DNA of 57,021 nucleotides, filler included, from Basidiobolus ranarum (GCA_040143965.1; 5 parts of 5 records of this genome joined end to end with filler, not necessarily neighbours in it); one strand, 5' to 3'; positions 8,065 through 57,021 are shown, numbered from the whole stretch's first letter. Numbers and translations: made by a program. The notes: a model not told the origin generated them from the letters alone.

Positions 8065-8173
8065 TGTTAAAATTAGCATAGCCTAAGCACCTATATAGTC
8101 ATATATAGCTTAGCATGTAGTTATTCCATATTGAACTAAGATATCACCTTAAGGGAAATTTACTTAGAAGTTT
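8065..8173 (+). mobile_element. Truncated 5' part of a Copia-type LTR (same family as 46068-46387 and 46935-47283)
   Basis: TGTTAAAATTAGCATAGCCTAAGCACCTATATAGTCATATATAGCTTAG closely matches the start of the contig-5 LTRs. Confidence 0.75.
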
Positions 8174-11339: not shown

Positions 11340-11439
11340 NNNNNNNNNNNNNNNNNNNNNNNNNNNNNNNNNNNNNNNNNNNNTTAATTAATTAANNNNN
11401 NNNNNNNNNNNNNNNNNNNNNNNNNNNNNNNNNNNNNNN
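11340..11439. other. Artificial contig-joining spacer
   Basis: 44 N + TTAATTAATTAA (stops in all six frames) + 44 N. Confidence 0.98.
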
Positions 11440-22773: not shown

Positions 22774-22873
22774 NNNNNNNNNNNNNNNNNNNNNNNNNNN
22801 NNNNNNNNNNNNNNNNNTTAATTAATTAANNNNNNNNNNNNNNNNNNNNNNNNNNNNNNNNNNNNNNNNNNNN
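22774..22873. other. Artificial contig-joining spacer
   Basis: N44-TTAATTAATTAA-N44. Confidence 0.98.
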
Positions 22874-27125: not shown

Positions 27126-30100
27126 TCATGCAAAGCAATGTTTCACCACTGCTTTGTTTAGTGAGAAACCATCCAGAACCATTGCAAACACATGATCATA
27201 CATGTTCTCAAAGAACCCTTGACTTTTAAGATTCTGGTGTTGATAACCATCAGTCATATTGGTAATACAATCATCTTTATGGTGAGTACTTTGGTAATGT
27301 ATCAAGGATCTATATTGGGTGATTTCATCAAAACTCTAAGACAGGGAATCAACAGATTGTAAGCCAAAAATGAATCATACTTACCTGATTCAGTGATTGC
27401 CAGTTGTGTGCCAACAGTACATGAACTCAGATTGTTCACATCACAGGTGAAAGACAAACAACCAATTGGTCATGAAGGTAGTTGAAATACTGAAGGATGA
27501 AAGTCATACAATTGACAAGTGTTTTCCACTTGTACCAGGTCTGTGGCAAGCAACAGTTGCCTATCAACTGTGGTAAAAGTGTAAGAAACCCAACAAACAC
27601 TTAGTTGCTAAGATTGGATTGAATTGTCCACTCCTCAACAATCAAAGCTACTTTCTTTACTGTCAGTTTTATGAGTAGACTAATGCCTGCCAATAACAAA
27701 GAGTCCACAACAAAATCATGATCAGTTTCTTCAGCTTCCATCAGTACTTGAATAACCAAGTCCTACATCTAGAGGTATGTCCTCAAAGTTGTCTGGATTT
27801 ACCAGTTAGATCAAAGTTGCATTTCTATCTACATCTTTCTGGTGGTCTAACTGTGGTAACTTCACCATCTCTTGACTTTCAGCAGTGTTACCAAAATTTT
27901 GAGGTAAAGCACAGATAGTGAACTCAGTAGGCAAAACTAAAGTTGCTTTTGTGCCCTTATTACTGATAATATTCATCAGGCCCTTGCTCAGGAACCATGT
28001 TTGTGAATATTTTTTCTGTGAAGTCTCCAGCTCTCACAGTACAACAATTTGTGACAATAATTGCAGGACTTCTTTAAACATTTATGTTGTGGCATGAGAA
28101 GGATATTGTAGAAGAAAGAAAACCTCCTACAAGGTTGTTATTTTAGCTATATCTTATCAACATTGTTGGCTGATTCTGAGATGGTGTCATGGGTGAGTCA
28201 TCAGGGGATTTGCAAGAGATGTCATTTAAAGGATGATAATTTTAGTTCTTTATAAGCTGTTTCTAAGCAATTTCATTACACCAAGTTTACTACCTGAGTA
28301 TTTCCATGCCATTCAAAAAGCATCACAAATGTACATCAAGATTGGCTCCCAAGCCAAAGCTTGCTGGCACAAAAGGAAAAAAACCAGCAACAAGAGAGAA
28401 CTTAATTCATAAGAAGTTTAGTGATCCACTATCCACTTTGCAAGGCATTAACATGCTGGAAACCAACACAAGTAATGATGAAGCATTATATCAGTCAAGC
28501 AGATGTGTTCCTTTCCCACAATTCTACAAGTGAAGTGATTGTAATCCCCCAATTATATAGTATAACAATAGTTGAGCAAAGTTTAACCAAAACACCATCA
28601 TGACCAACAACTTCCAAACTAGCTACTTTGCCAACTATTCAATGCCCCACCATAGTAAATTTGGATCAAGGTTTTACAACATGGGAATCTTATGCAGAGC
28701 ACCATAATGATTGGTATGCAATCATAAGTAAAAACTACAAAGTTGCTATATCGGCCATGACAAGCAATAATGCCACAATATTGCAGTTGTTGCAGTGTTC
28801 TGAAACAGCTAGTCAACAGTTAGAGAGTGACTTCACAATCATACAAGACCTTCAGAATGCTGTAAATGGGCTAGAGTAACATGCTGCTTCCTCTGTCCAT
28901 TCTCATATGGGATTTTAACATTCTCATACCATATATAAGAATGCCTCCTTGACAATCTAGCAGAGCAGAATGTGTGTTGGACCTCTTGGCCCACAAAACA
29001 ACCCAAAAATTGCTTGGGCACAAGAAGGGAGATATATCATTGGAAAAACAGCAAACCAAACAACCCTGGATGTTAGAGCTGCTGTCACTTGCTCCAAAGA
29101 TGAGTGGTTTAAAATTTGGAAACTATGAGTGATTCAACATTTTGGAAACTGTGCAGAATCCTGCCCAAAATCACCTAGATCTGAGCCAATTGTGGAAAAA
29201 CCAAACCCAGTGTTACTCTGAAGGTTCTTGACTTATCCTGGGTTTTTTCAAGCAAATGGCAATTGGGCTAGTATACACCTGTTCATGAAACATCTCATTA
29301 ATGTGCAAAATTAGCAACTTGGAAAGGAAAGAAAAGTAGCTAAAGAAGTACTCAAGGAGCAGCAAGTGAGAAAATGCTAGGGAGAAGCAAAGGAGCCAGT
29401 GAATTTGGGCTCTACTGTCCTATTTACCAAATTCGTCATAACATTGCAAAGATCTGTATTTCCAGAGTCAGAAATACTGCAAAAAGGCCCAATTTTACCA
29501 TGAAACCAGGTACACCAGTTGGAAGAGAGCAAAATTTGGAACATACTTCAATACCGGGCACCTTTCATCAAGCTAAAACACCAGCCAATGAAGCTCAGAG
29601 CTCTCCAATCTCAACTGGTACTTTTCAAAGTACAGAAAATAGCCCCAAACTTAAAGGCAAGTAGAAAGCCACACAAACATCACAAAGCACCCACCAGAAT
29701 ATCACACTACAAGGATGTATAGAGGTATTAAAAGTGCCTGAGGAGTATTTTCATAAGTATAAGGGAAAAATATAGTTCAAGTATGCAGAAAGTGGCATCA
29801 GTAGAATAACATTCAACTAGATATTCAGTCTGGTGTTGACTGTGCAGATATCTGGGAAAAACTTAATTCAGAGTGGCACAATATTGCAGGGTATCTGCCA
29901 GATAGCTGGAGAAATGAAATGCAACTTTCGTTGAACCTGCAGGTCCAGACAACTTTGAGGACATGCTGCTAAATGTTGACCTTTGTTATTCCTGTACTGA
30001 AGGTAATCTATCAGAAGTGGAAGAAGAAGACAATGGTTTAGTTACAGACTCTTTGTCATGATGGTAAGAAAATGGTCAATCCAAAATGGATAAACATTGT

Positions 30101-30890: not shown

Positions 30891-31220
30891 TGTTGACATT
30901 AGCAATAGCCAGACACCTATATAGTTATATACAGCTTAGGATTTTGTAATTGTATACTACACTAAGTTATCACAGATTACTCTCAACCACAATTTGCTTT
31001 GAATATCATTACCAACTTATAAGTTCTCAGATATTTAGATTTTTCAAACTTATACTCGCAGCTGCAACTTTGTGCATATATTTGTTGGACCTTCCTTAAG
31101 ACACTCTATATGTTAGTTGACTTACATCTTGACAAAAGTAGTAATGTCAATTTTACTCAACAAATCTGCAGGTGAAAACCACCAACTGATTTAATTCCTC
31201 AAGCCATTTCCAATCAAATT
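30891..31220 (+). mobile_element. Diverged Copia-type solo LTR inserted in CACTA remnant
   Basis: TGTTGACATTAGCAATAGCCAGACACCTATATAG start and GTGAAAACCACCAA block match the LTR family. Confidence 0.65.
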
Positions 31221-31989: not shown

Positions 31990-33985
31990 ACACTCCTGCC
32001 ATCAGTAAACTTGAAGGTTTTTGCAGGTGCAATGCACTATCTTGCTGTAGATTTTGTCAAATTAATGGTGTTTGCCCTACCATGCATATGCATAACTACC
32101 ATCCAATTATAACACTAAACTACTTGATTCAACCATCAAGACCCCAGTCAGATTTCAGCACACTCACTAATATGAATTCACCAAATAGTCAGTCTAACAT
32201 CAAACTTGGTATAAGCCATAAGCCTAAGACTATATTGCTAAAGGGGAGCAGCTGTAGCCAGAGAATTCCATTAAACACTATGCACTTACTATTCATCAAC
32301 ATTCCATTACTACTTACTTAGCAATATAGTGGAAAATCAATACAATTGAGCCATTTGAGAAAAGATCAAAGTTTGAATTGATTGGGAAAATGCTTGAACA
32401 CATCAAGAAACCATCATATTTTACCCAGACTTCCATCAATATTGACTCATCAAGGGGTTTATTCAAATGCAAAGTCTGGAAGTATTGGATTTATGTATAT
32501 TCAAGTGGATTCTTGTAAGATTTTTGCCTGATAAGTATTGGCAACATTGGGAGTTGTTTGTGGATATTGTTATAATATTCTTATGCCATTAACACATTGT
32601 GGCAGATTGCAGGCAAATACAGCTACTGTACAAAATATTTTGTAATTGCATGTGAAAATTTATTACATGTTTAACCAAGATTCACCAAAGCTATGCTGTT
32701 ATTCAATACTTTCCCTGCTACATCTTTCATAATGCTTAGAGATTATTGGAACTAGCTATACATTCTGAAAGTTCCCAATGGAGTGCATGTGCAGTGAATT
32801 GATGCTCTGTGTAACATTATCAGTATTACCATATGCTACACTAGAAATTGTCAGTATTACCATATGCTAATCTGCCTAACTGTGGACTTAGTCCATTGAG
32901 CCAGGATTTATCCAACCTTGGATCAATATATCAGAGTAAATGTGATTGAAATTTATCATGCCAGAGGTTGATGGATAGTGCCAAATTGTGCTGCCCAAAT
33001 TTTAGAAAGATTTATCCATTATAATATATACAGCACAATGTGGCACTATCACAGAGAACAAGTTGCATGTATTAGCATAAACAGTGATGGATGTAATGCA
33101 ATGGTTTAACAACACTCTGGAGTATATTGACCTTCCAGAAAAGGACTCTTTTGAATATATTTACAGGTTTTTGCATTAATTGAGCACAATGACAGCAACA
33201 AAACCCACTCAATGGACACAGAGTAAATATCTCTATAATCAGACTAATTTGCTTTTGTGATAATCTGATGGTATTTTTAGGAAAACTGCAAGATGGACTC
33301 CTTGGTGAGATAGATCAAGATATGCAGTATTTTAGTTTTGGCCATGGGGTAATCTGTTCCAGCAATGACACATCTACTTGTGGAAGGACATTTGTTGACT
33401 GCAAGTTTGGGATATATTGGCTGAATTCTTTATGGAAATTTGCCAAAATCCAATAGCTTATTCTCATTGTGAATGGTAACAAGAGTCAGCTATTTGCCAG
33501 GTGTAGTGCTATTCTAAATTTCAGATGTTTAGCCATTTTTCCACCAACAGTTTGCTGGTAAAGCATATTGATGTTGTTCAGTTATGTCTAATCAGTCAAG
33601 TTTGTGTATATATAGAGACTAAACACAACAAGCTTCTTGTATTTTTTGATTTTCATTATTGCTGGAATACAAAGCCTAAAATATCTAAATAAAGGCATGC
33701 ATATCAGTTTGAATTCCTATAGCAGTAAACCAAGTAATATGCTATAAGAAAATTAGATATTTGCAAACAACTTTGAAATTTTGATAACATATGCTAAATA
33801 TGCAGATCAATTTTATGCCATGTATGAATATCATCAAAATACCATCAAGAAACCGCTGTCACACCAACAAATACCCGGCAGAATACAAGCCACCAATATT
33901 GTGATGGTTCTCTGACAGTTTTGCTCTTTTGGAGGGTGGATCCAATCCAGATTACATCATTTTGATTTTTGTTAGGGTATTGTGA
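31990..33985 (+). mobile_element. Another degenerate CACTA transposase copy with 3' flank
   Basis: LSCCRFCQING...HNY motif then colinear homology with 22874-24850 from ~32164; ~200-bp insertion near 32880. Confidence 0.7.
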
Positions 33986-34199: not shown

Positions 34200-34299
34200 N
34201 NNNNNNNNNNNNNNNNNNNNNNNNNNNNNNNNNNNNNNNNNNNTTAATTAATTAANNNNNNNNNNNNNNNNNNNNNNNNNNNNNNNNNNNNNNNNNNNN
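34200..34299. other. Artificial contig-joining spacer
   Basis: N44-TTAATTAATTAA-N44. Confidence 0.98.
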
Positions 34300-44029: not shown

Positions 44030-45084
44030 GTTTTCTTTGGATTTACTTCAAAAGGGAAAGTTAGGATGGATTCGATATTTCCACTAAAATGAAAGCATCT
44101 TCCTCTATCCAAAATTCCTTCTGATTACTCCACGAAATCTACTTTTGTCACATTCACTAGTTTGAATTTCTTCAAATAAATATCATCTCTTTTGGATGAC
44201 TTCAAATTTCCATATTGAATTCTAGTTTATATCTAGCTAAGAGAGCAGCCATTCGTCAAAGTTGCTGGTTTATTCTAGTGCTTGTTAAAAGTCTCATACA
44301 TGAGTGAGTTAAGTGAAACTGGTCTAAACTTGCTATGGTGCCAATCCGAAACTCTAGCGACTTGACTATCAATTAATGATTGATATCTATTTGATCAATT
44401 TTAGTCAATGATTAATCACTGAAGAGAATATTCCTGAATATCCAAGCTATATCAAGTTGGAGACTTGAAGTCGATCAAAAATTCATTCGCACTGCACTCT
44501 TGCCCTTCCAATCACCACCTATAAGATTCCACATAATATATTATAGAATCAGCAAGTAATGGATCCTTCTGTGAAGCCATACATTTTTCCTACTAAGCCT
44601 TCGTATATTTTACGATCAGTACATTCCCTCTTCAATTACGGTGGCTTAGCTGAATATAAATTACTAAGCCACTGAATGATTAGGATTGTAATGTTTCGAT
44701 AACGATCGAATCATACGCTTCAATACAACTGTGGTTTTATTATAGTGAGAAGCATAAATAGGAGATAGTTATATCTAAAAACAAAGGTTTGTAGACCAAA
44801 AAGAGGCCCCTCCCCAAAATATCATATGACTAAAGTCAATTCAAGTGTAAAATGGGTGGCTGATGATCATTTGTAGTGATACATCACCATATCACGTCAA
44901 TATAGATAATCCAACACATAGGTACACCATTATTCCATGCCATAAGTCGTCATTTAGTAAATTCCTTCTTTTTTTTTCTATAAATTCCAAACCGCTGCTT
45001 AGACATTTCAATATCTCAAAGCTATTATCAGCTTCGAACACCAAGAACCCTTTAATCCTCCCCCTTATAAAGTTTTTCGAAAAT

Positions 45085-45622
45085 ATGAACCGCGGTAACT
45101 TTGGTCGTAAATCTTCTCGCTATGGGGATAACCAACCTGAAAGTCGGGAAGAGATGCGTGAGCGTTACGGTCTTGACCAATCTTATGAGCGTGAAAGAAG
45201 AATGGGCAATCGTAGTGGCATGAATGATGAGTATAACCAAGGTGAAAAGTTTGGTCGTCGTTATGACGAAGATATGGAATATGGACGTGGTCGCATGGGT
45301 CAAAGATATGGACGTCGTTACGAAGAAGGAATGGAGTATGGACGCGGCCGTATGGGTCAAAGATATGGTCGTGGTGAAGATATGGAGTATGGTCGTGGCC
45401 GTATGGGTCAAAGATATGGCCGTGACGAAGATATGGAGTATGGCCGTGGCCGTATGGGTCAGAGATATGGTCGTGGTGAAGAAGGTGAAGGTATGGAGTA
45501 TGGCCGTGGCCATATGGGTCAAAGATATGGACGCCGTTACGATGAGGATATGGAATATGGTCGAGGTCGCATGGGACTAGTGGACGGCCGGCGGGAAGGG
45601 GTGGGTGTGGATTTTGGTGGGG
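45085..45622 (+). CDS. Disordered Gly/Arg/Tyr/Met/Glu tandem-repeat protein, 3' truncated
   Basis: ATG at 45085; six copies of (E/D)xMEYGRG(R/H)MG(QRYGR) with synonymous variation between units; TATAAA at ~44979. Confidence 0.7.
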
Positions 45623-45722
45623 NNNNNNNNNNNNNNNNNNNNNNNNNNNNNNNNNNNNNNNNNNNNTTAATTAATTAANNNNNNNNNNNNNNNNNNNNNN
45701 NNNNNNNNNNNNNNNNNNNNNN
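45623..45722. other. Artificial contig-joining spacer
   Basis: N44-TTAATTAATTAA-N44. Confidence 0.98.
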
Positions 45723-46067
45723 GACACGGGGCCGATCCAATTTTCAGGTACTTCATGAGCACGCAAGATTACTAGAGCTCCAATCAACCCGTGGTGCTTA
45801 TGATTCCGATACTCTGCTAGAGACTACGATTTGGATCATTTACTGGAACAGGGACGGCAAATGGTTCAGGAACAAGTTGCTTGGGTAGCCCATTATGCAA
45901 ATGAAGCTGAATACGCTCTCCAACTCGGCCTCGAATAATCAGTGGCTCAACTTTGTTTCCTTTTATATTGAAGCATTCTCGGTTCTTTGACTTGATGATC
46001 TTCGGTGACCGTGGCTCCTGATACCCTGTCAAGCAGTAAATCAAGCGGTAAATCAAACCATAAGGAT
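45723..46067 (-). pseudogene. Fragment of a third MnxG-like multicopper oxidase copy (pseudogene)
   Basis: Near-identical to ~50794-51289 but with a ~160-bp deletion, a 12-bp duplication and truncation by an LTR at 46068. Confidence 0.88.
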
Positions 46068-46387
46068 TGTTAAAGTATTTGGGAGCCTGTTGGAAGTGGT
46101 TTGGTGAATTAGAGAAATTGGTGGTTTTCACTTATTGATTTATTGAGTATTCAGTTGACATTTATAGTTTTGTCAAGATGTAAACAAACAAGCATGTAGA
46201 ATGTGTTAAGAAAGGTCCTAGGAACATGTGTGCAAAGTTTGGGGCTTCTAGCACAAGTTATCAAAATCTATATATCTTCAAACTTTTAAGTAAATTCCTC
46301 TTGAGGTGATATCTTAGTTCAATATGGAATAACTAAACACTAAGCTATATATGACTATATAGATCTTAGGCTATACCAATTTTAACA
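46068..46387 (-). mobile_element. Copia-type LTR (~320 bp, TGTTAA...TTAACA)
   Basis: Inverted termini TG...CA; reverse complement of 46935-47283. Confidence 0.8.
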
Positions 46388-46774
46388 TTTAATAGTCCTA
46401 ATTGGTAAAACAGATTTAGGAATATTTGTGTCTAGACTCATATCTATATATGCTCTTCTCAATTCTAAATCTTTATTCCTGATATCTTCTCTGTATGTTA
46501 AAGCCTAATAAATATATATGATAGTATACCTATACCTCAAGATCTTTGTTGATATCCATCTGCTTTAGGTGTAAGATAATAATTGTCTAAAATCATTCTT
46601 GCTAATTTTGGTAGAATACATATCTATAGGTTTAAGAGCAATAGAAGAATAATGTCAATATCCAACAAAATATATTTAAGATATATTGTCCAGAAATATG
46701 GATATCTGAAAGCACTCAAACAATGTTTCAAACCTGGATATCTCTATATAGTTAAGGAAATAAATACTCAGGGT

Positions 46775-46934
46775 AGTAAGATGTATACTCACGTTAAATC
46801 CTATACTGATACAAACTTGGTGGCTAAAAGTTACGCAGCATCTGTTCATATATTCAAGTCCAAAGTATCTGGAGAATGAAAATACAGCCAAGCAACAGGA
46901 AATTGGGTATAATACAGATGGATAGAGTGATCCT
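46775..46934 (+). pseudogene. Inverted upstream continuation of the MnxG-like pseudogene
   Basis: Reads FKSKVSGE*KY then AKQQEIGYNTDG*SDP versus FKSKVSGERKYFVTAKRQEIVYNTDGWSDP in the intact genes, but on the opposite strand. Confidence 0.8.
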
Positions 46935-47283
46935 TGTTGAAATTAGCATTGCCTAAACACCTATATAGTCATATATAGCTTAGTATTTAGTTATCCTATA
47001 TTGAACAAAGATATTATTCATTATTCTCATAAGGAATTTACTTAGAAGTTTGAAGATATATAGATTTTGATAACTTGAGCTAGAAGCCCCAAACTCTGCA
47101 CACATGTTCCTGAGACCCTCCTTAACACATTCTACACATTAGTTTGTTTACATTTTGACAAAACTATAAATGTCAACTGAATACTCAATAAATCAATAAG
47201 TGAAAACCACTTCATGTCAACTGAATACTCAATAAATCAATAAGTGAAAACCACTTCCAACAAACTCTCAAAATACTTCAACA
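46935..47283 (+). mobile_element. Copia-type LTR (TGTTGA...TCAACA) with an internal 44-bp tandem duplication
   Basis: Canonical TGTTG...CAACA ends; ATGTCAACTGAATACTCAATAAATCAATAAGTGAAAACCACTTC at 47170 and 47214. Confidence 0.82.
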
Positions 47284-47472
47284 CCCTTGACATGTTTTCT
47301 AAAGAAATTTAGGAGCCAAAAAAACCTCTCCGAAGAACATGGTATTTCTACGAAATGGATTTATGGTAACAGAAATGAAGACGCACTTTTTTTTTGGTGG
47401 CAAGAAAATTTTCTCATTCGCGTTTGCAGAATCAATTCAGCATTATCATCCTCACAACTTAAATTTCAACCG

Positions 47473-48213
47473 ATGACAAGCGAGCTCATTCTCTACCTTG
47501 AGCCGAGTAGGCACTCTGCGCTCTCAGCACAAACTCAGCAATTTTACGAGGCTAGTCGACTACAGCCTTTTTCTAACAATGAAGCTCTACGATATCCAAT
47601 CCATTCCACAATGGTTGGATTCTTTAATCGCCCGATCTCTCCGTCTGCTCCCTTACCCGATGGACTCGGATCTCTGATTGAATACCTCGAAAATTCGATA
47701 CCTCGCCTTTCTCAATCTCTGAAATCTCAACCGTTTCAATCTCTCGATGGAGTTCAAACAAAACCTCCCGTGTTGATTCAGGGTTACGTCCGTCCCAGTC
47801 CAGACTCTCTCTTGATCGCTCTTCTCCCTTCAGATGAACTCTCTGAACTTGTACTCGATCTCTGTCAACAATTCCCTTCTTTAGGTCTACGGCTGAAACG
47901 GATCAACCATCTGTCACTTTGTTACTGGGATGCATCTGAAATGATTCGGAGAAATGCCATGTCTGAGAAGGAGCAATCCCAACGTGCTCGTTGGGTCGAT
48001 CAGGCATATGCATTAGCATATGAAAAGATTCCAATGTTACGACCTCTTTGCAATCAGGAAGACGATCAATCTCAGGTTCAACAGCAACAAGAGCAGCGAA
48101 GTAGATATGTGTTGAATGAGTCTTGGGATATTGTTCTATACGAGATTCTGGGTCGGGATAAAACCAATGATCTTCCTTACCCGCTTCAGGAACTCAAACG
48201 GTGGACACTATGA
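47473..48213 (+). CDS. 2H phosphoesterase-like protein (UBASH3/cyclic phosphodiesterase-type), intronless
   Basis: MTSELILYLEP...NEALRYPIHSTMVGFF (HxT) and RINHLSLCY (HxS) give the two catalytic 2H motifs. Confidence 0.65.
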   Translation: MTSELILYLEPSRHSALSAQTQQFYEASRLQPFSNNEALRYPIHSTMVGFFNRPISPSAPLPDGLGSLIEYLENSIPRLSQSLKSQPFQSLDGVQTKPPVLIQGYVRPSPDSLLIALLPSDELSELVLDLCQQFPSLGLRLKRINHLSLCYWDASEMIRRNAMSEKEQSQRARWVDQAYALAYEKIPMLRPLCNQEDDQSQVQQQQEQRSRYVLNESWDIVLYEILGRDKTNDLPYPLQELKRWTL

Positions 48214-50216: not shown

Positions 50217-53200
50217 TCACTTATGCACACGGAAAATACCCCAGTTTTCTATCAAATACTCTGCATTTAACCATCCAGCTCTATAGACCCAATCTCCAGT
50301 ACTATTGCTTGCTGTGAACTCATCATTTACGCTTCCACCTGTACTGATAGCATTGTTGACTGAAGAGACACCATGTTGTGGCGCCTTGAGCTGATCAAGC
50401 CAGGCGTGACCATGGAGATGGAATGATTGTGGCCTTGATTTGTCCAGACCGCTTACTATCCTAAGCATCTGCTGAGTTCCGGGGATTGCGCAGAATACAT
50501 CCGTTGAAGGACTTTTGTTTTGCAACCATATTGGAGCAGAGGCAGGCTGGTTTCGATAGTTCACGGCTTTCAATCCAGCATCCTGGAAATCGACGCCAGT
50601 CTCGCCTGGCACAGGAGTAGTAACATTGGACAGAATTTGGAATGGGAAGCCAGTTGCATAAGGAATTGGTGTGTTGGCAGAGTTATTCTGGAACAAACGT
50701 AAACCAGATTGCAATATCATCACTTTATCTTGATATAACAACCTTCCGTGGTTTGATCGTTTATTGTAAACGTCAGCACTGAAGTAAACATCGGACACGG
50801 GGCCGATCCAATTTTCAGGTACTTCATGAGCACGCAAGATTACTAGAGCTCCAATCAACCCGTGGTGCTTATGATTCCGAATATCTGCATGATCTTGTAG
50901 TGGAAGTGCCCCTAGATGTTGGTCCGCATACCAACTGTAGATCCTCGTATCTCCTGGTCCAACTGTGGAATCTTCGTTATAGCCGACGTTAGAACCATCA
51001 TCGTACCTGACATCATGCTGTATGAGCGGAGCATGTATCGATACCCTATTGGATACAGTTCGATTTGGATCATTTACTGGAACGGGGACGGCAAATGGTT
51101 CAGGAACAAGTTGCTTGGGTAGCCCATTATGCAAATGAAGCTGAATACGCTCTCCAACTAGACCTCGAATAATCAGTGGTTCAACCTTGTTCCCTTGTAC
51201 ATTGAAGCATTCCCGGTTCTTTGGCTTGATGATCTTTGGTGACCGTGGCTCTTGATATCCTGTCAAGCAGTAAATCAAGCCATAAGGATCACTCCATCCA
51301 TCTGTATTATACACAATTTCCTGTCGCTTGGCGGTGACAAAGTATTTCCGCTCTCCAGATACTTTGGATTTGAATTTGCTAATGGCGCCAGGGCGACTTC
51401 TAGCCAAACTATCTGAACTTCTCGTATGGGCATATCTGTATTTCGCAACATCTCTCAACAATGTAGAGTGATAGAAGGAAGATACTTTCTGCTCAGGACC
51501 GGGAATCCTTGGCAAATGCTTTTGAGGAGTATCGTAAACTCGCGTAATACCCCAACCACCCAGCCATAAATCATCAACCCCACCAAGTTTGTACAGATGA
51601 TCACCCGTACTGTAATCGGATTGAACTCTAAATGTGAAACCCTCAGAAATACCAATAACCTGCTGATTTGTGACATTTACACTGGCAAGATCTCTGAACT
51701 TTTGCCAACGCATTCCGTGCATTTCGAAACTGTGTGGCTTATCATGGGCACCTTGAACCAGACGTATGATGACATTGTCTCCACGATAGGCTTCGAATAA
51801 AGGTGTTGATGGGTCTCCATACTTATTCTTACTGCTAAACCATTCCGAAGGATCTAACCCTTTCCTTTCAATCAATGGCTCATTTCTATAATTCGTTACC
51901 ACTATACCATGATCTGCCAATACATTCTGGTTAGGAGGTGGACGGATTGCAGTGCCATTGCGATAGAATGCTGGAGTATAATCACCGATGAAAAGAACTT
52001 GTTCTCTGAACGATTCCTCGGGGCCAATAACTACGGCACTAGAATTATGGCGTTGTTCTTGCTTTAAATTATGTGGGTTCAAAAATTTGGACCCAGTAGG
52101 TGCCACAGGTGCTATCCCATACAAACCTTTCTTTTGACGATAACTAGCAAATAGATGGTCATGGAAGAAGACATGGCCCAGAGCATCATCAATCCACCAA
52201 CGATTAATCAGATACTTTCCAAATCTTGCACCACTGATATAATTCCAACCAACGGAGGCACCATCACTGGATAGTACATCAAACTTGACGAGATGTACGT
52301 GCATACCAGCCTCACCTTCAGAAGCTACTGTTGGACATCTAGGGAACTGTTTATCAAATGGAGTAGCAGGAATTGTGCGGGGAAGGTTGTTGGTGTATTG
52401 ACTCACAGAGACACTCTTCTGAGTAACACGCATTGTGAAAGGCTCATATCTGGCAGGACGTCCAGGGTCTGGCTTCACTGTTTCTGCTGCAGCAAACATA
52501 TGACCATATGGATAATGCCATCCATACTTGTTATACTCAATATCACGTGTCATGATGCTAACATTGAAGAAATGCGTTTCTAGATTACGAGGAGTAGGAA
52601 TCAAAGTGAACAAGTTTCCGACTTGAGGATCGGAATTCATACTTGCTACTTCAACCTCAGTTGCTGGACGATAGTCTGATCCTTCTGGGATCTTACCCAA
52701 TATTTCCACCGGCCAAGGAACTCTAGGGGATTTCTGACCAGGGGTGCCAGCAATAAAGTTTGGATAACCTGGCTGAAGTTCAGTCTTGTATGGTGGATGT
52801 GGTCGACCAGGCAATGGGATCAACTTGGGGATAGGAGTACCATCAGGATATGTATAACGACCATCTTCATAACGATCTATGACACGCATCATACTCCACA
52901 TTCCTGTTTCGAAATGGACATACAAATGGCAATGGAGAATGACATCTCCGATCGTCTTCAATCTAGAGCCAGCACCGAAATGGATGTCCAAATCCCAAGT
53001 AGTCAGAGGAGACAATGAAAAGGAATCGATAATATCACTTTGACGATCACCTCTTCCCGAACTCCATTGATGGCCATGTAAGTGGAATACGTGGGTTTCA
53101 GTTACACCGGTGTCAATGACTCTGTACCTTACTGGATCACCAGCATAAGCACGGAAGACTGGGGTTGCTGGATCACCAAATAGCCAGCTAGAGTGATGCT

Positions 53201-54242
53201 GTTCTTCACCATTAACGTTTGATATCTGTCCATCCGCAATCATTCTCCACAAAGCAAGTTCACGGTTCTTCATCGGCTCAGAACGATAGTTGAAGACATT
53301 GACAACTGGTATACCTGTTTGATTTTCAGCAGTGCAGGGATCAACTGTAGGTGCACGGTTATTCTGAATTGCAACTCTATCTTGGAAGAATAGGGTGAAT
53401 TCTCTGAATGGGCAGTCAGGATGAGAGTGTTGATCTTCCTCGGCATAAAAATCGTGTCTCTTGGGACATCCTCCATTAAGGGGGTAGGGGTGAATATCGA
53501 CATGGGCCCCTTCGACGACTGGCTTTCCTGTAGTTGGATCTGTCCAGAGGGAACCTTTAGGCTCGACAATAACAGCACCAAATAGCCCATGGACCACTGT
53601 ACCAGCTGGTGAGCCATCATATGTACCACCATCAGAGATCAAGTAAGTACCTTCCCGCAAACAAGGCCAAGTATATTCAGTCATCTCTCCGGCACTTACT
53701 ACGCCAATAGGGTTATTTCCTACCGCAGATCCGTCACTCTTTATGTCATACCCATAAAGATATGGGTGCATTCCAACTTGAATCCCTGGAATTTGGTTTG
53801 TGAATTTGACATGGATTTTGTCACCTTGATTACAACGTAATACAAGAGGTTGAACAAGTGGATCTGTAGGCAAATCTGTAGAATTTTGACCCAGTTGCGC
53901 TAAAATATAATCACGATAACCGCTGAGATATTCAAGATTCTGCTTTAAAGCAAACATGACACCTCTAGCATCGTAATCACCCCATGAGTTCATCACAATT
54001 GGCATCGGGATTGCTGAAACCTCATAGAGACGAGTTTGAGGAATAAGTCTCTGCCGCATACGTGACCCGGTCCAGTGGTCGTTCTTTCGTGAGTCTGTGC
54101 CTGTAGAACGAGAGCCGCTTTCATAGGCCGAGACATTCGGAAGAAGTAAACTTACCACCAGGAGCACCAACATCAAGTAGACAAGAGAATGAGATTCTCT
54201 GCCCTGGCGACAATCACTTTTCGATGATCGTTTAACAAACAT
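50217..54242 (-). CDS. Large secreted MnxG-like multicopper oxidase (putative manganese oxidase), ~1341 aa, intronless
   Basis: ATG 54242 (alt 54173); hydrophobic leader LVYLMLVLLVVSLLLPNVSA; Cu motifs HVFHLHGHQW, HCHLYVHFETGM, MHVHLV and FFHDHL; MnxG-type blocks PLVLRCNQGD, NYRSEPMKNR, SSWLFGDPATP, YPDGTPI..LIPLPGR, DGASVGWNY. Confidence 0.9.
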   Translation of the reverse strand: MFVKRSSKSDCRQGRESHSLVYLMLVLLVVSLLLPNVSAYESGSRSTGTDSRKNDHWTGSRMRQRLIPQTRLYEVSAIPMPIVMNSWGDYDARGVMFALKQNLEYLSGYRDYILAQLGQNSTDLPTDPLVQPLVLRCNQGDKIHVKFTNQIPGIQVGMHPYLYGYDIKSDGSAVGNNPIGVVSAGEMTEYTWPCLREGTYLISDGGTYDGSPAGTVVHGLFGAVIVEPKGSLWTDPTTGKPVVEGAHVDIHPYPLNGGCPKRHDFYAEEDQHSHPDCPFREFTLFFQDRVAIQNNRAPTVDPCTAENQTGIPVVNVFNYRSEPMKNRELALWRMIADGQISNVNGEEQHHSSWLFGDPATPVFRAYAGDPVRYRVIDTGVTETHVFHLHGHQWSSGRGDRQSDIIDSFSLSPLTTWDLDIHFGAGSRLKTIGDVILHCHLYVHFETGMWSMMRVIDRYEDGRYTYPDGTPIPKLIPLPGRPHPPYKTELQPGYPNFIAGTPGQKSPRVPWPVEILGKIPEGSDYRPATEVEVASMNSDPQVGNLFTLIPTPRNLETHFFNVSIMTRDIEYNKYGWHYPYGHMFAAAETVKPDPGRPARYEPFTMRVTQKSVSVSQYTNNLPRTIPATPFDKQFPRCPTVASEGEAGMHVHLVKFDVLSSDGASVGWNYISGARFGKYLINRWWIDDALGHVFFHDHLFASYRQKKGLYGIAPVAPTGSKFLNPHNLKQEQRHNSSAVVIGPEESFREQVLFIGDYTPAFYRNGTAIRPPPNQNVLADHGIVVTNYRNEPLIERKGLDPSEWFSSKNKYGDPSTPLFEAYRGDNVIIRLVQGAHDKPHSFEMHGMRWQKFRDLASVNVTNQQVIGISEGFTFRVQSDYSTGDHLYKLGGVDDLWLGGWGITRVYDTPQKHLPRIPGPEQKVSSFYHSTLLRDVAKYRYAHTRSSDSLARSRPGAISKFKSKVSGERKYFVTAKRQEIVYNTDGWSDPYGLIYCLTGYQEPRSPKIIKPKNRECFNVQGNKVEPLIIRGLVGERIQLHLHNGLPKQLVPEPFAVPVPVNDPNRTVSNRVSIHAPLIQHDVRYDDGSNVGYNEDSTVGPGDTRIYSWYADQHLGALPLQDHADIRNHKHHGLIGALVILRAHEVPENWIGPVSDVYFSADVYNKRSNHGRLLYQDKVMILQSGLRLFQNNSANTPIPYATGFPFQILSNVTTPVPGETGVDFQDAGLKAVNYRNQPASAPIWLQNKSPSTDVFCAIPGTQQMLRIVSGLDKSRPQSFHLHGHAWLDQLKAPQHGVSSVNNAISTGGSVNDEFTASNSTGDWVYRAGWLNAEYLIENWGIFRVHK

Positions 54243-54300
54243 CGTTGAGTGACACCAGTATATACTTGAGCTGATGAGATTAGTTGTCCGTCGCTTTATC

Positions 54301-54307
54301 TTATATA
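54301..54307 (-). promoter_or_regulatory. Putative TATA box of the multicopper oxidase gene
   Basis: TATATAA on the minus strand ~60 nt upstream of ATG 54242. Confidence 0.45.
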
Positions 54308-54860
54308 TTATTAGAGTATCAGTATACGTTAGAGACTTTGTAACTTGAGAGGGATTTTCGCTCCAAGAGTTTGAAAAAAGCAAGTCATGTAATTGGCATA
54401 CGATTACTTGCATATTACTTATTTTCATATGCATTAATTAATATTTGTCTTGACATGGTTCATGAATACGAAACTACCTACTGGAATTTTGTCACAGAGT
54501 TTAAATCCTTGTTTGATCATGTATTACCCGAGCGCACAGTTGGTTGGATCGAACACTTGGATGCTGATCAATATCGAATTCTAAGATTCGATCAATGCAC
54601 TGATGAAAAACTTCCGTTAATTAACTTGAAATGGTGATATAGTGTAATATTAGGATTAGTCTATTATATAGATCAACAGTAAATGACTGGAGATCGCTGT
54701 CTACAGTATCTTTGTTCACTACGCGTCCTTGATAATGATTGTTTGGTATTAGATAGAAATTTCTCCCTATTAGTATCATCGTAAATCAAATCACTAACAA
54801 ATATAGATAACACATGGGTATTTTGTGAGTCTACCAATATTGTGGGGATAATAGAAAAAA

Positions 54861-55028: not shown

Positions 55029-57021
55029 TTATTTGTGCACTCGGAATATACCCCAGTTTTCTGTGAGGAACTCTGTATTTAGCCATCCAGTTCTGTAAGC
55101 CCAATCTCCAGTATAATTACTAGCTGTAAACTCATTGGTTATACTAGTGCCTGTACTTATAGCATTGTTGACTGAAGAAACACCATGCTGTGGTGCCTTG
55201 AGCTGATCAACCCATGCATGTCCGTGGAGATGGAATGGTAGGGGTCTGGGTTTATCCAAGCCACTGACAACATATAGGATTTGACGAATGCCTGCAATTG
55301 CGTGGAAGATTTTCGTGGAAGGTTGACTATTTCGCAACCAGTTGGGAGTAGAAGCAGGTTGATTCCGATAACTCATAGCTTTTAGTCCTGCATCCTGGAA
55401 ATCGACACCAGTCTCACCTGGAACAGGAGTAGTAACGTTGGACAGAATTTGGAATGGGAAGCCAGTTGCATAAGGAATTGGTGTGTTGACAGCGTTGTTT
55501 TGGAACAAACGTAGGCCAGATTGCAATATCAACACTTTATCTTGATAAAGTAGTCGTCCTCGTGTTGACCTAGCATAAACGTTACTGCAATAGTAAACAT
55601 TGGATTCAGAACCAATCCACTTTTCTGGGACTTGGTGAGAAGGCAAGATTACTAAAGCTCCAACCAACCCGTGGTGTTTATGGTTCCTAATATCTGCGTG
55701 GTCTTGAAGTGGAAGTGCTCCTAAATATTGATCCGCATACCAATTATAAACTTTCGTAGCCCCTGGTCCCACAGTAGAATCTTCGTTAAAACCAACATTA
55801 GAGCCATCATCGTATCTCACATCATGCTGTATGAGCGGAGCATGTATTGATACCCGGTTGGAGACTCGGCGATTTGGATCATCTACTGGAACAGGGACAG
55901 CAAATGGTTCAGGAACGAGTTGCTTGGGTAGCCCATTATGCAAATAAAGCTGGATACGCTCTCCAACTAAACCTCGAATAATCAGTGGTTCAACTTTGTT
56001 CCCTTGTACATTGAAGCATTCCCGGTTCTTTGGCTTGATAATCTTTGGTGACCGTGGCTCTTGATATCCTGTCAAGCAGTAAATCAAGCCATAAGGATCA
56101 CTCCATCCATCTGTATTATACACAATTTCTTGTCGCTTGGCTGTGACAAAGTATTTCCGCTCTCCAGATACTTTGGACTTGAATTTACTAATGGCGCCTG
56201 GGCGACTTCTAGCCAAACTATCTGAGCTTCTTGTATGGGCATATCTGTATCTCGCAACATCTCTTAAGAATGTGGAATGATAGAAGGAAGATACTTTCTG
56301 CAGGGATCCTGGAATTCTAGGCAAATGCTTTTGAGTAGTATCATAAACTCGAGTGATACCCCAATTACCCAGCCATAAATCATCAATGCCACCAAGTTTG
56401 TACAGATGATCTCCTGTACTGTAATCAGACTGAACTCTGAAAGTGAAGCCCTCAGAAATACCAATGGTTTGCTGAGTAGTGACATTGACTTTGGCCAAAT
56501 CTCTGAACTTTTGCCAACGCATCCCGTGCATCTCAAAGCTGTGTGGCTTATCATGAGCACCTTGAACCAGACGTATGATGACATTGTCTCCACGATAGGC
56601 TTCGAATAAGGGTGTTGATGGATCTCCATACTTATTCCTGCTACTAAACCATTGCGAAGGATCTAATCCTTTCCTTTCAACCAATGGCTCATTTCTATAA
56701 TTGAGTACTGCAATACCCTGATCTAGTAACGCGTTTTGGTTAGGAGGTGGACGGATTGCAGTGCCATTTGCATAGAATGCTGGAGTAAAATCACCAATGA
56801 AAATGACTTGTTCTCTGAACGATTCCTCAGGGCCAATAACTACAGCACTAGAATTATGGCGTTGTTCTTGCTTTAAATTATGTGGGTTCAAAAATTTGGA
56901 CCCAGCAGGCGCCACAGGTGCTATCCCATACAAACCTTTCTTTTGACGATAACTAGCAAATAGATGGTCATGGAAGAAGACATGGCCCAGAGCATCATCA
57001 ATCCACCAACGATTAATCAGA
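55029..57021 (-). CDS. Second tandem MnxG-like multicopper oxidase, C-terminal ~660 aa (5' part beyond contig end)
   Basis: Open frame from the contig edge LINRWWIDDALGHVFFHDHL to ENWGIFRVHK*; colinear and highly similar to the 50217 copy. Confidence 0.9.
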   Translation of the reverse strand, partial: LINRWWIDDALGHVFFHDHLFASYRQKKGLYGIAPVAPAGSKFLNPHNLKQEQRHNSSAVVIGPEESFREQVIFIGDFTPAFYANGTAIRPPPNQNALLDQGIAVLNYRNEPLVERKGLDPSQWFSSRNKYGDPSTPLFEAYRGDNVIIRLVQGAHDKPHSFEMHGMRWQKFRDLAKVNVTTQQTIGISEGFTFRVQSDYSTGDHLYKLGGIDDLWLGNWGITRVYDTTQKHLPRIPGSLQKVSSFYHSTFLRDVARYRYAHTRSSDSLARSRPGAISKFKSKVSGERKYFVTAKRQEIVYNTDGWSDPYGLIYCLTGYQEPRSPKIIKPKNRECFNVQGNKVEPLIIRGLVGERIQLYLHNGLPKQLVPEPFAVPVPVDDPNRRVSNRVSIHAPLIQHDVRYDDGSNVGFNEDSTVGPGATKVYNWYADQYLGALPLQDHADIRNHKHHGLVGALVILPSHQVPEKWIGSESNVYYCSNVYARSTRGRLLYQDKVLILQSGLRLFQNNAVNTPIPYATGFPFQILSNVTTPVPGETGVDFQDAGLKAMSYRNQPASTPNWLRNSQPSTKIFHAIAGIRQILYVVSGLDKPRPLPFHLHGHAWVDQLKAPQHGVSSVNNAISTGTSITNEFTASNYTGDWAYRTGWLNTEFLTENWGIFRVHK

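What the first reader, a model, noticed from the sequence alone, without database searches (positions are those of the whole stretch)
50217..54242. Bacterial MnxG-type manganese oxidase in a fungal genome (probable HGT)
Seen: a 4-kb intronless ORF in a genome whose housekeeping genes are intron-rich. It has one complete type-1 site (HCHLYVHFETGM ~52899-52934 plus HVFHLH ~53076-53093) and trinuclear-cluster motifs MHVHLV (~52287-52304) and FFHDHL (~52152-52169), which lie downstream of the T1 site. Later cupredoxin repeats are Cys-less (HSFEMHG, SFHLHGH). Established: this size, motif order and blocks such as SSWxxGDPATP and YPDGTPI are characteristic of the Bacillus spore-coat Mn(II) oxidase MnxG. 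Ordinary three-domain fungal laccases and Fet3 differ: ~550-650 aa with HCH near the C-terminus. Inference: a bacterium-to-fungus transfer giving the host a secreted Mn(II)-to-MnO2 biomineralising or radical-detoxifying enzyme, which I do not know to be described in early-diverging fungi.
Basis: partly seen in the sequence, partly recalled or inferred. Interest (0 to 1): 0.92.

Follow-up and report, generated by a model that had tools for sequence, protein, structure and literature searches.

The report
Bacterial-type MnxG copper oxidase in fungus
A fungus related to Basidiobolus carries intact tandem copies of a large copper enzyme otherwise typical of bacteria, where relatives turn dissolved manganese into mineral; the gene came from bacteria long ago and is shared with a few soil chytrids.

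Summary
Window 50217-54242 (-) is an uninterrupted 1341-codon gene with every motif at the stated coordinates. It matches the solved Bacillus MnxG at E 8.7e-195. All 12 canonical copper ligands are kept.

- Origin: all 14 fungal homologs found (Basidiobolus, Spizellomycetales and Rhizophlyctidales chytrids) form one clade inside a large bacterial family. So the gene is of bacterial origin, but old and shared, not private to this genome.
- Donor: its sister is a mixed cyanobacterial, proteobacterial and Bacteroidota group, not the Bacillus MnxG clade.
- Partners: the MnxE/MnxF proteins that Bacillus MnxG needs are absent from the contig.
- Linkage: the window is five ~11.3-kb contigs joined by N spacers. 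The cited intron-bearing neighbours are therefore not linked to the gene.
- Fungal residence rests on other evidence: a linked gene with only fungal named relatives, a shared repeat family, host-like codon use and 4-mers, a eukaryotic-style signal/anchor and dN/dS 0.13 between tandem copies.

Manganese oxidation is inferred, not shown.

The parts
50217..54242 (-). MnxG-family multicopper oxidase, copy 1: complete intronless CDS, 1341 codons plus stop
   Evidence: P0003, 100%. (9bxa_A, E 8.7e-195). (35% identity over 1305 columns to the Bacillus-type P0186).
54123..54242 (-). N-terminal extension absent from bacterial homologs: a charged stretch, then a 15-residue hydrophobic segment (LVYLMLVLLVVSLLL) followed by PNVSA. 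Probably a signal peptide or signal anchor.
   Evidence: 15-aa hydropathy 3.13. Similar segments occur in most full-length fungal models. Bacterial proteins start near query residue 70. No signal-peptide predictor was available.
53076..53093 (-). HVFHLH: one type-1 Cu His plus an HxH pair of the trinuclear cluster (P0001 H448, H451, H453)
   Evidence: H in 65 of 66 aligned family members; the 66th is a gap in a partial model.
52899..52934 (-). HCHLYVHFETGM: type-1 Cu Cys502, His507, Met512, flanked by trinuclear-cluster His501 and His503
   Evidence: C in 65 of 66; M in 64 of 66.
52287..52304 (-). MHVHLV: HxH pair of the trinuclear cluster (H712, H714), next domain
   Evidence: 66 of 66.
52152..52169 (-). 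FFHDHL: HxH pair of the trinuclear cluster (H758, H760)
   Evidence: 65 of 66.
55029..57021 (-). Copy 2, tandem, same strand. Only the C-terminal 663 codons are present; the rest runs off the end of the contig and window.
   Evidence: 88% protein identity. (86% nt identity, dS 0.52, dN/dS 0.13).
45723..46131 (-). Degraded third copy. It matches residues ~983-1069 and 1119-1150 of copy 1, with a 163-nt internal deletion and a frame change, and is cut by the contig start.
   Evidence: (D2, D8).
46784..46964 (+). Two short inverted scraps of the same gene (residues ~937-996), lying between two inverted copies of a dispersed repeat
   Evidence: (tblastn, 44% and 63% identity, E 9e-07).
46121..47210 (.). 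Pair of inverted 185-nt repeats (46121-46305 and 47026-47210, 92%). The repeat family also occurs on other contigs of the window (8065-8173, 30891-31150).
   Evidence: I4, I8, I10, D10.
47473..48213 (+). Linked neighbour gene (246-aa public gene call P0338, inside ORF 47248-48213). It is 2'-5' RNA ligase-superfamily-like by the Pfam labels of its homologs, and all named relatives are fungal.
   Evidence: 33 homologs besides itself; all 29 named ones are Mortierellomycotina at 32-63% identity. PF13563 is precomputed on 9 hits. No Pfam hit for the window ORF itself. The start coordinate is inferred from the 77% coverage and the first Met.
45623..45722 (.). Artificial contig joiner (N44 + TTAATTAATTAA + N44). 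Identical joiners lie at 11340-11439, 22774-22873 and 34200-34299.

Best explanation
The locus is a tandem array in a Basidiobolus-like fungus. It holds at least two intact copies and one degraded copy of a six-cupredoxin-domain multicopper oxidase of the MnxG family.

Origin. The gene descends from one old bacterium-to-fungus transfer. All known fungal members form a single clade inside the bacterial family: Basidiobolus plus the soil chytrid orders Spizellomycetales and Rhizophlyctidales. Inside that clade, a second chytrid paralog branches first and Basidiobolus is sister to the main chytrid group. This means either an early fungal acquisition with duplication and many losses, or acquisition in chytrids followed by a fungus-to-fungus transfer.

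Fit to the host. The gene is now fully at home: host-like codon use, an added N-terminal signal or anchor, and purifying selection on both copies.

Mechanism (inferred).
- The protein enters the secretory pathway.
- It binds one type-1 Cu and a trinuclear Cu cluster at the interface of domains 2 and 3. The type-1/HxH motifs come before the two HxH motifs of the following domain, as in MnxG.
- It takes single electrons from a metal substrate at the type-1 site and reduces O2 to water at the cluster.
- The likeliest substrate is Mn(II), then Mn(III), giving Mn oxide.
- It does this without the MnxE3F3 cap that the Bacillus enzyme uses. Most bacterial members of the family also appear to lack that cap.

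Shown: family, ligands, phylogeny, tandem structure, selection. Inferred: secretion, substrate, physiological role.
For: Family.
- 9bxa_A MnxG at E 8.7e-195. Colinear 35% identity over 1305 columns to Bacillus-type P0186.
- Only local Cu-oxidase_2/_3 Pfam hits.

Ligands.
- The 12 canonical ligands are conserved in 64-66 of 66 aligned members, and in every full-length fungal model apart from one gene-model gap.

Bacterial family size.
- 495 representative clusters at E<=1e-30 among 1.84 billion.

Fungal clade.
- 11 of 11 fungal rows form one clade in a 194-row FastTree (100).
- 14 of 14 in a 66-row IQ-TREE LG+C20 PMSF tree (SH-aLRT 99).
- 14 of 14 in a 28-row tree (100).
- None of 44 added unnamed representatives joins it.

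Sister group.
- The sister is a 23-row mixed non-Bacillota group (99).
- Rooted on Pseudomonas-type relatives, the fungi-containing group is sister to the Bacillota group.

Indels (fast alignment).
- A 1-aa deletion near residue 167 and a ~6-aa insertion at 512-517 are shared by all three fungal groups.
- An insertion at 1150-1166 and a 2-aa deletion near 315 are shared by Basidiobolus and chytrid group A only.
- The AU test rejects chytrid monophyly (p 0.001).

Fungal residence.
- A linked gene has only fungal named homologs.
- A repeat family is shared with other contigs.
- RSCU correlation is r 0.78 against five other ORFs of the window; those ORFs score 0.38-0.73 among themselves.
- 4-mer correlation is r 0.87-0.92 with the other four contigs, against a median of 0.54 with 80 bacterial loci.
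- Homologs sit on fungal contigs up to 1.47 Mb.

Selection and targeting.
- dN/dS 0.134 over 663 codons between the copies.
- N-terminal hydrophobic segment.
Against:
- No whole genome is held. MnxE/F could lie elsewhere, and the contig is only 11.3 kb.
- Substrate is unproven. The proven Mn oxidase of Bacillus needs mnxE and mnxF (PMC5622069). Neither is in the window, nor in the 61 of 80 bacterial loci outside the Bacillales-type group.
- The protein scores 214 bits against a 3100-bit cut-off for the NCBIfam MnxG equivalog.
- The sister-group bacterial enzymes are uncharacterised, and their neighbourhoods gave no functional hint.
- The linked neighbour gene has Mortierellomycotina relatives but no named Basidiobolus relative, so the host's identity is not settled.
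- Tree support is SH-aLRT or local support only, with no bootstraps.
- The AU group was named after the tree was seen.
- Most metagenomic rows are unnamed and could hide eukaryotes.
Confidence: 0.78

Rival explanations
1. Same gene and same origin, but the enzyme is not a manganese oxidase. It is a secreted or wall-bound oxidase for another substrate: Fe(II), Cu(I), phenols, or spore-wall pigment precursors.
For: - No MnxE/MnxF, which the only biochemically dissected MnxG needs (PMC5622069).
- Only ~35% identity to Bacillus-type MnxG.
- Far below the NCBIfam MnxG equivalog cut-off.
- The bacterial sister group is uncharacterised. The 'manganese oxidase' labels on JGI hits are automatic names.
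Against: - The fungal clade lies between the Bacillota group, which holds Bacillus-type MnxG, and relatives of Pseudomonas-type MnxG when rooted on the latter. Mn oxidation could therefore be ancestral. However, those outgroup rows score only 785-1077 bits against the 3100 cut-off.
- Besides the copper ligands, extra His positions in domains 4-6 are conserved across the family, including Bacillus-type members: H837 in 66 of 66, H1124 in 64, H1277 in 63.
Confidence: 0.4
2. Basidiobolus and the chytrids each took the gene separately from closely related bacteria that have not been sampled, rather than sharing one transfer.
For: - Very patchy distribution in fungi, in two distant phyla only.
- Basidiobolus is reported to hold many bacterial genes: 811 candidates, as quoted in 10.1101/2021.12.02.471044 from Tabima 2020.
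Against: - No bacterial row breaks the fungal clade in four taxon samplings.
- Indels are shared by all fungal groups.
- Fungal members are 39-42% identical across phyla, against 30-38% to bacteria.
Confidence: 0.1
3. The gene is an old eukaryotic or early fungal gene inherited vertically and lost almost everywhere. No transfer from bacteria took place.
For: - The fungal clade spans Chytridiomycota and a zygomycete lineage.
- It contains an old duplication.
Against: - The clade is nested several nodes deep within bacterial groups under every rooting tried (midpoint, Bacillota, Pseudomonas-type).
- Among the named hits, no eukaryote other than these fungi appears.
- Only 5 of the 150 listed representative clusters are fungal.
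Confidence: 0.05
4. The 11.3-kb contig is bacterial contamination of the assembly.
For: - The contig is short, and its large ORFs are all MnxG copies.
Against: - The linked ORF 47248-48213 has only fungal named homologs.
- A dispersed repeat is shared with contigs that carry eukaryotic genes.
- Codon use and 4-mer profile match the other contigs.
- Coding density is low, with ~0.8-2 kb spacers.
- There is an N-terminal signal/anchor.
- The closest relatives come from independent Basidiobolus assemblies at 73-75%, against at most 38% for any bacterium.
Confidence: 0.02

Closest known systems
Bacillus sp. PL-12 MnxG, the catalytic subunit of the Mnx complex (PDB 9bxa)
   Same: - Same length class and six-domain order.
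- Colinear homology along the whole protein.
- Same single type-1 site and trinuclear-cluster ligands in the same order.
   Different: - About 35% identity, and a different clade of the family.
- No mnxE/mnxF beside it.
- An N-terminal signal/anchor that the Bacillus-type proteins lack.
- Eukaryotic host.
- Tandem gene copies.
Uncharacterised MnxG-like oxidases of cyanobacteria (Oculatella, Scytonema), Belnapia/Roseomonas, Allosphingosinicella, Archangium and Pontibacter
   Same: - Sister group in the trees.
- 35-38% identity.
- Also without MnxE/F genes in the flanks held.
   Different: - Bacterial, with no fungal-type N-terminal extension.
- They lack the indels that mark the fungal clade.
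- Function untested as far as I could see.
Hypothetical proteins of Basidiobolus meristosporus (K493DRAFT_409940, K493DRAFT_374135), B. ranarum (K7432_005044, K7432_013123), Spizellomyces punctatus SPPG_09220, Powellomyces hirtus, Fimicolochytrium jonesii, Rhizophlyctis rosea and Borealophlyctis nickersoniae
   Same: - Same fungal clade.
- 73-75% identity for the nearest Basidiobolus proteins; 36-42% for the main-group chytrid proteins.
   Different: - Public records name them only as hypothetical, cupredoxin or copper oxidase proteins.
- No paper found links them to MnxG.
Pseudomonas putida-type MnxG (NCBIfam NF041487)
   Same: Distant member of the same superfamily, and a genetically supported Mn oxidase (review PMC13689576, abstract and passages read).
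   Different: - About 1,900 residues.
- The window protein scores 214 bits against a 3100-bit cut-off.
Three-domain fungal laccases / Fet3, and ceruloplasmin-type six-domain oxidases
   Same: Cupredoxin domains and the same copper-ligand chemistry.
   Different: - Laccase-type PDB chains match only locally (E about 1e-11, roughly 100 residues). No chain named ceruloplasmin, hephaestin or Fet3 is among the 52 PDB matches.
- The motif order differs. Here the type-1/HxxHxH/HCH block comes before the two HxH blocks.

Membership tests
MnxG-family six-domain multicopper oxidase (type: Bacillus MnxG, PDB 9bxa) | Full-length colinear homology to a solved or typical MnxG (~1200 aa, six cupredoxin domains) | tested here: met
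   E 8.7e-195, query 135-1199 against chain 3-995, plus a second stretch; residues 71-1339 against 3-1203 of P0186, 35% identity.
MnxG-family six-domain multicopper oxidase (type: Bacillus MnxG, PDB 9bxa) | One type-1 Cu site (His, Cys, His, Met) and eight His of a trinuclear cluster, with the HxxHxH and HCH blocks upstream of the two HxH blocks | tested here: met
   All 12 residues are present in copy 1 and conserved in 64-66 of 66 family rows.
MnxG-family six-domain multicopper oxidase (type: Bacillus MnxG, PDB 9bxa) | Accessory genes mnxE and mnxF next to mnxG (needed for the active Bacillus complex) | tested here: not met
   Profile HMMs were built from ORFs upstream of Bacillales-type genes, anchored on PDB 9bxa_B and 9bxa_E matches. 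They hit 19 of 80 bacterial loci and nothing in the window at E<=10. The rest of the genome could not be searched.
MnxG-family six-domain multicopper oxidase (type: Bacillus MnxG, PDB 9bxa) | Placement inside the Bacillota clade that holds the characterised enzyme | tested here: not met
   The fungal clade groups with a non-Bacillota assemblage. The Bacillota form a separate group.
MnxG-family six-domain multicopper oxidase (type: Bacillus MnxG, PDB 9bxa) | Mn(II) to Mn(III/IV) oxidase activity | not testable with these tools
   Needs enzyme or culture assays.
NCBIfam NF041487 copper_ox_MnxG (Pseudomonas-type equivalog) | Whole-protein score at or above the curated cut-off of 3100 bits | tested here: not met
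   214 bits.
Three-domain fungal laccase / Fet3 ferroxidase | About 550-650 aa, with HxH motifs in the N-terminal domain and HCH near the C-terminus | tested here: not met
   1341 aa, with HCH at residue 438 of 1341 (P0003 numbering); laccase chains match only ~100-residue stretches.
Ceruloplasmin-type six-domain oxidase | Sequence similarity to ceruloplasmin/hephaestin, and type-1 sites in domains 2, 4 and 6 | tested here: not met
   none of the 52 matched PDB sequences carries such a name; a single HCH.
Bacterium-to-fungus horizontally transferred gene | Recipient sequences nested within donor-domain diversity with support | tested here: met
Bacterium-to-fungus horizontally transferred gene | Physical residence in the recipient genome | tested here: inconclusive
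   Supported on an 11.3-kb contig by a linked fungal-type gene, a shared repeat and matching composition. No long-range linkage, read depth or whole genome was available.
Bacterium-to-fungus horizontally transferred gene | Patchy distribution in the recipient kingdom | tested here: met
   Only Basidiobolus and Spizellomycetales/Rhizophlyctidales appear among named hits. Unnamed rows could not be looked up.

The most novel reading that the evidence does not exclude
Early-diverging fungi hold their own lineage of MnxG-type oxidases that work without the MnxE3F3 cap. These are secreted or wall-anchored enzymes that make Mn(III)/Mn oxide in soil, dung or on resting spores. The lineage reached Basidiobolus from a chytrid by fungus-to-fungus transfer after one bacterial acquisition. 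This would give a eukaryotic, single-subunit model for enzymatic Mn biomineralisation and a dated marker for ancient inter-fungal gene flow.
Probability: 0.25. Interest if true: 0.75.

Novelty: new member of a known kind. Interest (0 to 1): 0.55.

Why it matters
- Enzymatic Mn(II) oxidation by MnxG-type oxidases is known from bacteria. Fungal Mn oxidation has been ascribed to laccase-like oxidases and peroxidases (my background knowledge, not checked here).
- A conserved, selected, tandemly amplified MnxG-family gene in Basidiobolus and soil chytrids would add a third route in fungi.
- It offers a version that apparently needs no accessory ring, which would make the enzyme easier to express and study.
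- The gene is also a clean phylogenetic marker. One bacterial origin shared by two distant fungal lineages bears on how much of the 'bacterial' gene content of Basidiobolus is old, or passed between fungi, rather than taken up recently in the gut.
- The gene models are already public as unnamed hypothetical proteins. The novelty therefore lies in recognition and interpretation, not in a new kind of system.

Tried and rejected
- Whole-genome search for MnxE/F and further copies: no genome is held.
I placed 44 of them in a tree instead.
- Cryo-EM paper of the Mnx complex (Novikova 2024): not held. Substrate-site and tunnel residues could therefore not be compared.
- AU test on the 66-row set never finished in three calls. 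It was repeated on 28 rows (53-55).
- First MAFFT run timed out. It was rerun with fast settings, so the indel and ligand tables rest on a fast alignment.
- Gene neighbourhoods of sister-group bacteria gave no conserved partner. The flanking ORFs were a LysM-subtilase, an M6 peptidase, a LuxR regulator, a transposase, RNase H-like ORFs and unknowns.
- ESM Atlas on the sugar-transporter ORF, to place the host: it returned only 'eukaryotic sugar transporter'.
- tRNA scan: none found.
- Structure prediction and complex prediction were not run. The sequence match to a solved MnxG already settles the fold, and there is no partner to test.
- Supplements are closed, so I could not check whether the Basidiobolus orthologs are among the 811 HGT candidates of Tabima 2020.

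Full report
**What is there.**
- The minus strand of 50217-54434 is one open frame of 1405 codons.
- From Met65 (54242) it gives a 1341-aa protein identical to a public gene call (P0003).
- Pfam sees only local Cu-oxidase_2 and Cu-oxidase_3 matches.
- The PDB search gives MnxG chain 9bxa_A at E 8.7e-195, 653 bits. Two-domain laccases follow at E about 1e-11 over roughly 100 residues, and nothing is named ceruloplasmin among the 52 matches.
- BLASTP to a Bacillus-type homolog (P0186) is colinear from residue 71 to 1339, at 35% identity over 1305 columns.
- The NCBIfam equivalog for Pseudomonas-type MnxG scores 214 bits against a cut-off of 3100.

**Copper sites.**
- In a 66-row family alignment, the four type-1 ligands are conserved. 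In P0001 numbering they are H448, C502, H507 and M512.
- The eight trinuclear-cluster histidines are H451, H453, H501, H503, H712, H714, H758 and H760.
- These 12 positions are conserved in 64-66 of 66 rows. The exceptions are one Phe at the Met position and gaps in partial gene models.
- The HxxHxH and HCH blocks precede the two HxH blocks. The cluster must therefore sit between the second and third domains, as in MnxG and unlike laccases.
- Further histidines in domains 4-6 are conserved across the family: H837 in 66 of 66, H1070 in 60, H1124 in 64, H1277 in 63 (P0003 numbering). Their role is unknown to me.
- The solved chain reads Ala where the family has the second type-1 His (alignment). 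From memory this may be an engineered variant. I did not check.

**The window is a composite.**
- N runs at 11340-11439, 22774-22873, 34200-34299 and 45623-45722 each read N44-TTAATTAATTAA-N44.
- The five pieces are 11,339, 11,334, 11,326, 11,323 and 11,299 nt long. The last length equals the 'longest contig' recorded for P0003 and P0338.
- The sugar transporter, HsbA, TM7S3, SGL, RST1-like and Per1 genes are therefore on other contigs. They say nothing about linkage.

**The MnxG contig (45723-57021)** holds, in order:
- a degraded fragment of a third copy, with a 163-nt internal deletion and a frame change, cut by the contig start;
- two inverted 185-nt repeats that enclose inverted scraps of the gene;
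- a 246-aa gene on the plus strand;
- copy 1;
- the C-terminal 663 codons of copy 2, which runs off the end.

**Is the contig fungal?** The evidence says yes.
- The linked gene (ORF 47248-48213) has 33 homologs besides itself. All 29 named ones are Mortierellomycotina at 32-63% identity, and none is bacterial.
- The 185-nt repeat family recurs at 8065-8173 and 30891-31150, on contigs with eukaryotic genes.
- Copy 1 has GC3 0.37. Its codon preferences correlate with five other ORFs of the window at r 0.78. Those ORFs score 0.38-0.73 against each other.
- The 4-mer profile of the contig correlates at 0.87-0.92 with the other four pieces, which score 0.82-0.96 among themselves. Against 80 bacterial loci the median is 0.54 and the maximum 0.86.
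- The protein has a 70-residue N-terminal extension with a strongly hydrophobic 15-mer followed by PNVSA. Most full-length fungal models have a comparable segment, and bacterial ones start at about residue 70.
- The two copies differ at dS 0.52 with dN/dS 0.134 over 663 codons, so both have been kept by selection.

**Relatives.**
- With the window protein as query, 137 proteins passed E 0.001 among 6809 candidates.
- After the self hit come an unnamed 75% protein, then B. ranarum and B. meristosporus proteins at 73%. A second Basidiobolus paralog group lies at 54-56%.
- Chytrid proteins follow at 36-42%: Borealophlyctis, Rhizophlyctis (two), Powellomyces and Fimicolochytrium. Bacterial and metagenomic proteins are at 27-38%.
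- A second search with the Powellomyces protein gave 602 hits among 8000 scored candidates. It added Spizellomyces punctatus SPPG_09220 and a second, divergent chytrid paralog in Fimicolochytrium and Borealophlyctis.
- The window copy is as close to each named Basidiobolus species (73.5% and 75%) as they are to each other (72.8%). This is why I call the host Basidiobolus-like.
- The linked gene's lack of a named Basidiobolus relative is unexplained.
They span Bacillaceae, Paenibacillaceae, many gut Lachnospiraceae and Oscillospiraceae, cyanobacteria, Actinomycetota, alpha-proteobacteria, Myxococcota and Bacteroidota.
- The exhaustive search of 1.84 billion representatives gave 1839 hits at E<=0.001 and 495 at E<=1e-30. 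Among the 150 listed, five are the fungal clusters.

**Trees.**
- FastTree, 194 rows: 120 proteins plus 74 of 80 loci. Six loci were dropped because their longest ORF lacked HCH or was under 1150 aa. Result: 11 of 11 fungal rows in one clade, support 100.
- IQ-TREE, LG+C20+F+G4 PMSF, short search, 66 rows x 1205 columns: 14 of 14 fungal rows in one clade, SH-aLRT 99.
  - Inside it, the divergent chytrid paralog pair branches first. Basidiobolus (6 rows) and chytrid group A (6 rows) are then sisters (99).
  - The clade's sister (99) is a 23-row group with Oculatella-type cyanobacteria, Scytonema, Belnapia, Allosphingosinicella, Roseomonas, Archangium, Pontibacter, a Thermoanaerobaculia MAG and one Geodermatophilus protein.
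  - The Bacillota lie on the other side of the midpoint root.
- A 28-row tree gave the same topology with support 100.
- Adding 44 unnamed representatives of 900-1900 aa put none inside the fungal clade.
- Rooted on three relatives of Pseudomonas-type MnxG, the 50-tip fungi-containing group is sister to the 13-tip Bacillota group (FastTree). Those three score 785-1077 bits, below the equivalog cut-off.
- The AU test rejects a tree with all eight chytrid rows together (delta lnL 31.6, p 0.001). I named that group after seeing the tree.
- Indels in a fast alignment agree. A one-residue deletion near residue 167 and a six-residue insertion at about 512-517 mark all fungal groups. An insertion at 1150-1166 and a two-residue deletion near 315 mark Basidiobolus plus chytrid group A only.
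- Support values are SH-aLRT or local. No bootstrap analysis was finished.

**Reading of the history.**
- One bacterial acquisition is the simplest account. The donor is not identifiable beyond 'not the Bacillota clade'.
- The nesting of Basidiobolus beside one of two chytrid paralogs fits two scenarios:
  - an acquisition before the chytrid/zygomycete split, with a duplication and losses in all other sampled fungi; or
  - acquisition and duplication in the Spizellomycetales/Rhizophlyctidales stem, then transfer to Basidiobolus.
- I cannot separate these two.
- Long stems (about 0.45-0.5 changes per site to each fungal group) show that none of this is recent.

**Accessory proteins.**
- ORFs upstream of a Paenibacillus homolog match MnxE (9bxa_B, E 1e-19) and MnxF (9bxa_E, E 9.7e-14).
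- HMMs built from such ORFs were run against 12,731 six-frame ORFs of the window and all 80 loci.
  - They hit 19 loci. All are Bacillales-type apart from one Eubacteriales MAG (L020) and one Ammonifex MAG (L039).
  - There were no hits in the window at E<=10.
  - There were no hits in any sister-group or Lachnospiraceae locus.
- Romano 2017 (PMC5622069, passages read) states that mnxE, mnxF and mnxG are all needed for activity in Bacillus.
- The review PMC13689576 (passages read) describes the cryo-EM complex as MnxG capped by an E3F3 ring, with a tunnel for Mn.
- The fungal enzyme, like most bacterial members, thus belongs to a cap-less and uncharacterised part of the family.

**Literature.**
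- Tabima 2020 (PMC7466969): the main text has no occurrence of multicopper, copper, cupredoxin, manganese or laccase. It reports that 61% of Basidiobolus HGT candidates lack introns, against 36% of native genes (passages). Intronlessness is therefore weak evidence.
- The preprint 10.1101/2021.12.02.471044 has none of those words either. It quotes 811 candidates from Tabima (passages).
- A 2013 survey of six-domain oxidases found MnxG homologs only in bacteria and two archaea (PMC3600357, passages).
- Three searches each returned 0 papers: MnxG+Basidiobolus, MnxG+chytrid, and Spizellomyces+'manganese oxidase'.
- Searches listed nothing relevant by title or abstract.
- Supplements were closed, so the gene may be in an unseen HGT table.

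**Verdict.** This is a real, intact, selected MnxG-family oxidase of bacterial ancestry in a Basidiobolus-like fungus. It is part of a small fungal clade shared with soil chytrids. The HGT reading stands, but as an old, shared event from a non-Bacillus lineage. Mn oxidation and secretion are reasonable but untested.

Noticed in passing
window 11340-11439, 22774-22873, 34200-34299, 45623-45722: Four artificial joiners (N44 + TTAATTAATTAA + N44) split the window into five contigs of 11,339 to 11,299 nt, in descending length. Features on different pieces are not linked.
   Followed up: yes
window 45723-46131 (-) and 46784-46964 (+): Degraded third MnxG copy. It is 80-94% identical to copy 1 at protein level over two stretches, with a 163-nt deletion and a frame change. 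Inverted scraps lie between two inverted 185-nt repeats. This suggests rearrangement by a dispersed repeat.
   Followed up: partly
window 47248-48213 (+): The gene linked to the MnxG array has its named relatives only in Mortierellomycotina (Gryganskiella cystojenkinii 63%, others 32-48%). Some are labelled PF13563, 2'-5' RNA ligase superfamily. No named Basidiobolus relative appeared, although the MnxG copies are closest to Basidiobolus. Host identity or gene history is unexplained.
   Followed up: partly
window 22921-24687 vs 32212-33804, and inverted 26282-27149: Segmental repeats of 60-90% identity about 9.1 kb apart, with an inverted copy between them, all within the third contig (families D1, D4, D7, D9, D11, I1-I3, I5-I7). 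Nature not examined.
   Followed up: no
window 45211-45598: Tandem ~51-57-nt repeats (family D3) inside overlapping ORFs 44851-45678 (+) and 45052-45670 (-). No Pfam match.
   Followed up: no
L021 10557-11344; L063 5369-6016 and 9872-10631: In Bacillus bruguierae the MnxE/MnxF-like pair lies downstream of the oxidase gene instead of upstream. Locus L063 has two such pairs.
   Followed up: no
loci L022-L080 (many): MnxG-like genes are common in gut Lachnospiraceae/Oscillospiraceae MAGs and isolates. In the flanks held, they have no MnxE/F genes.
   Followed up: no
P0015 and P0125 (Fimicolochytrium jonesii); P0004 and P0006: The two Fimicolochytrium paralogs report the same longest-contig length (459,799). 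P0004 and P0006 (85% identical) report the same length too (83,466). Each pair may be linked or tandem in its genome, as in the window.
   Followed up: no
PDB 9bxa_A aligned to P0001 residue 507: The solved MnxG chain reads Ala where the window protein and 65 of 66 family rows have the second type-1 histidine. It is possibly an engineered variant. This is from memory and unchecked.
   Followed up: no
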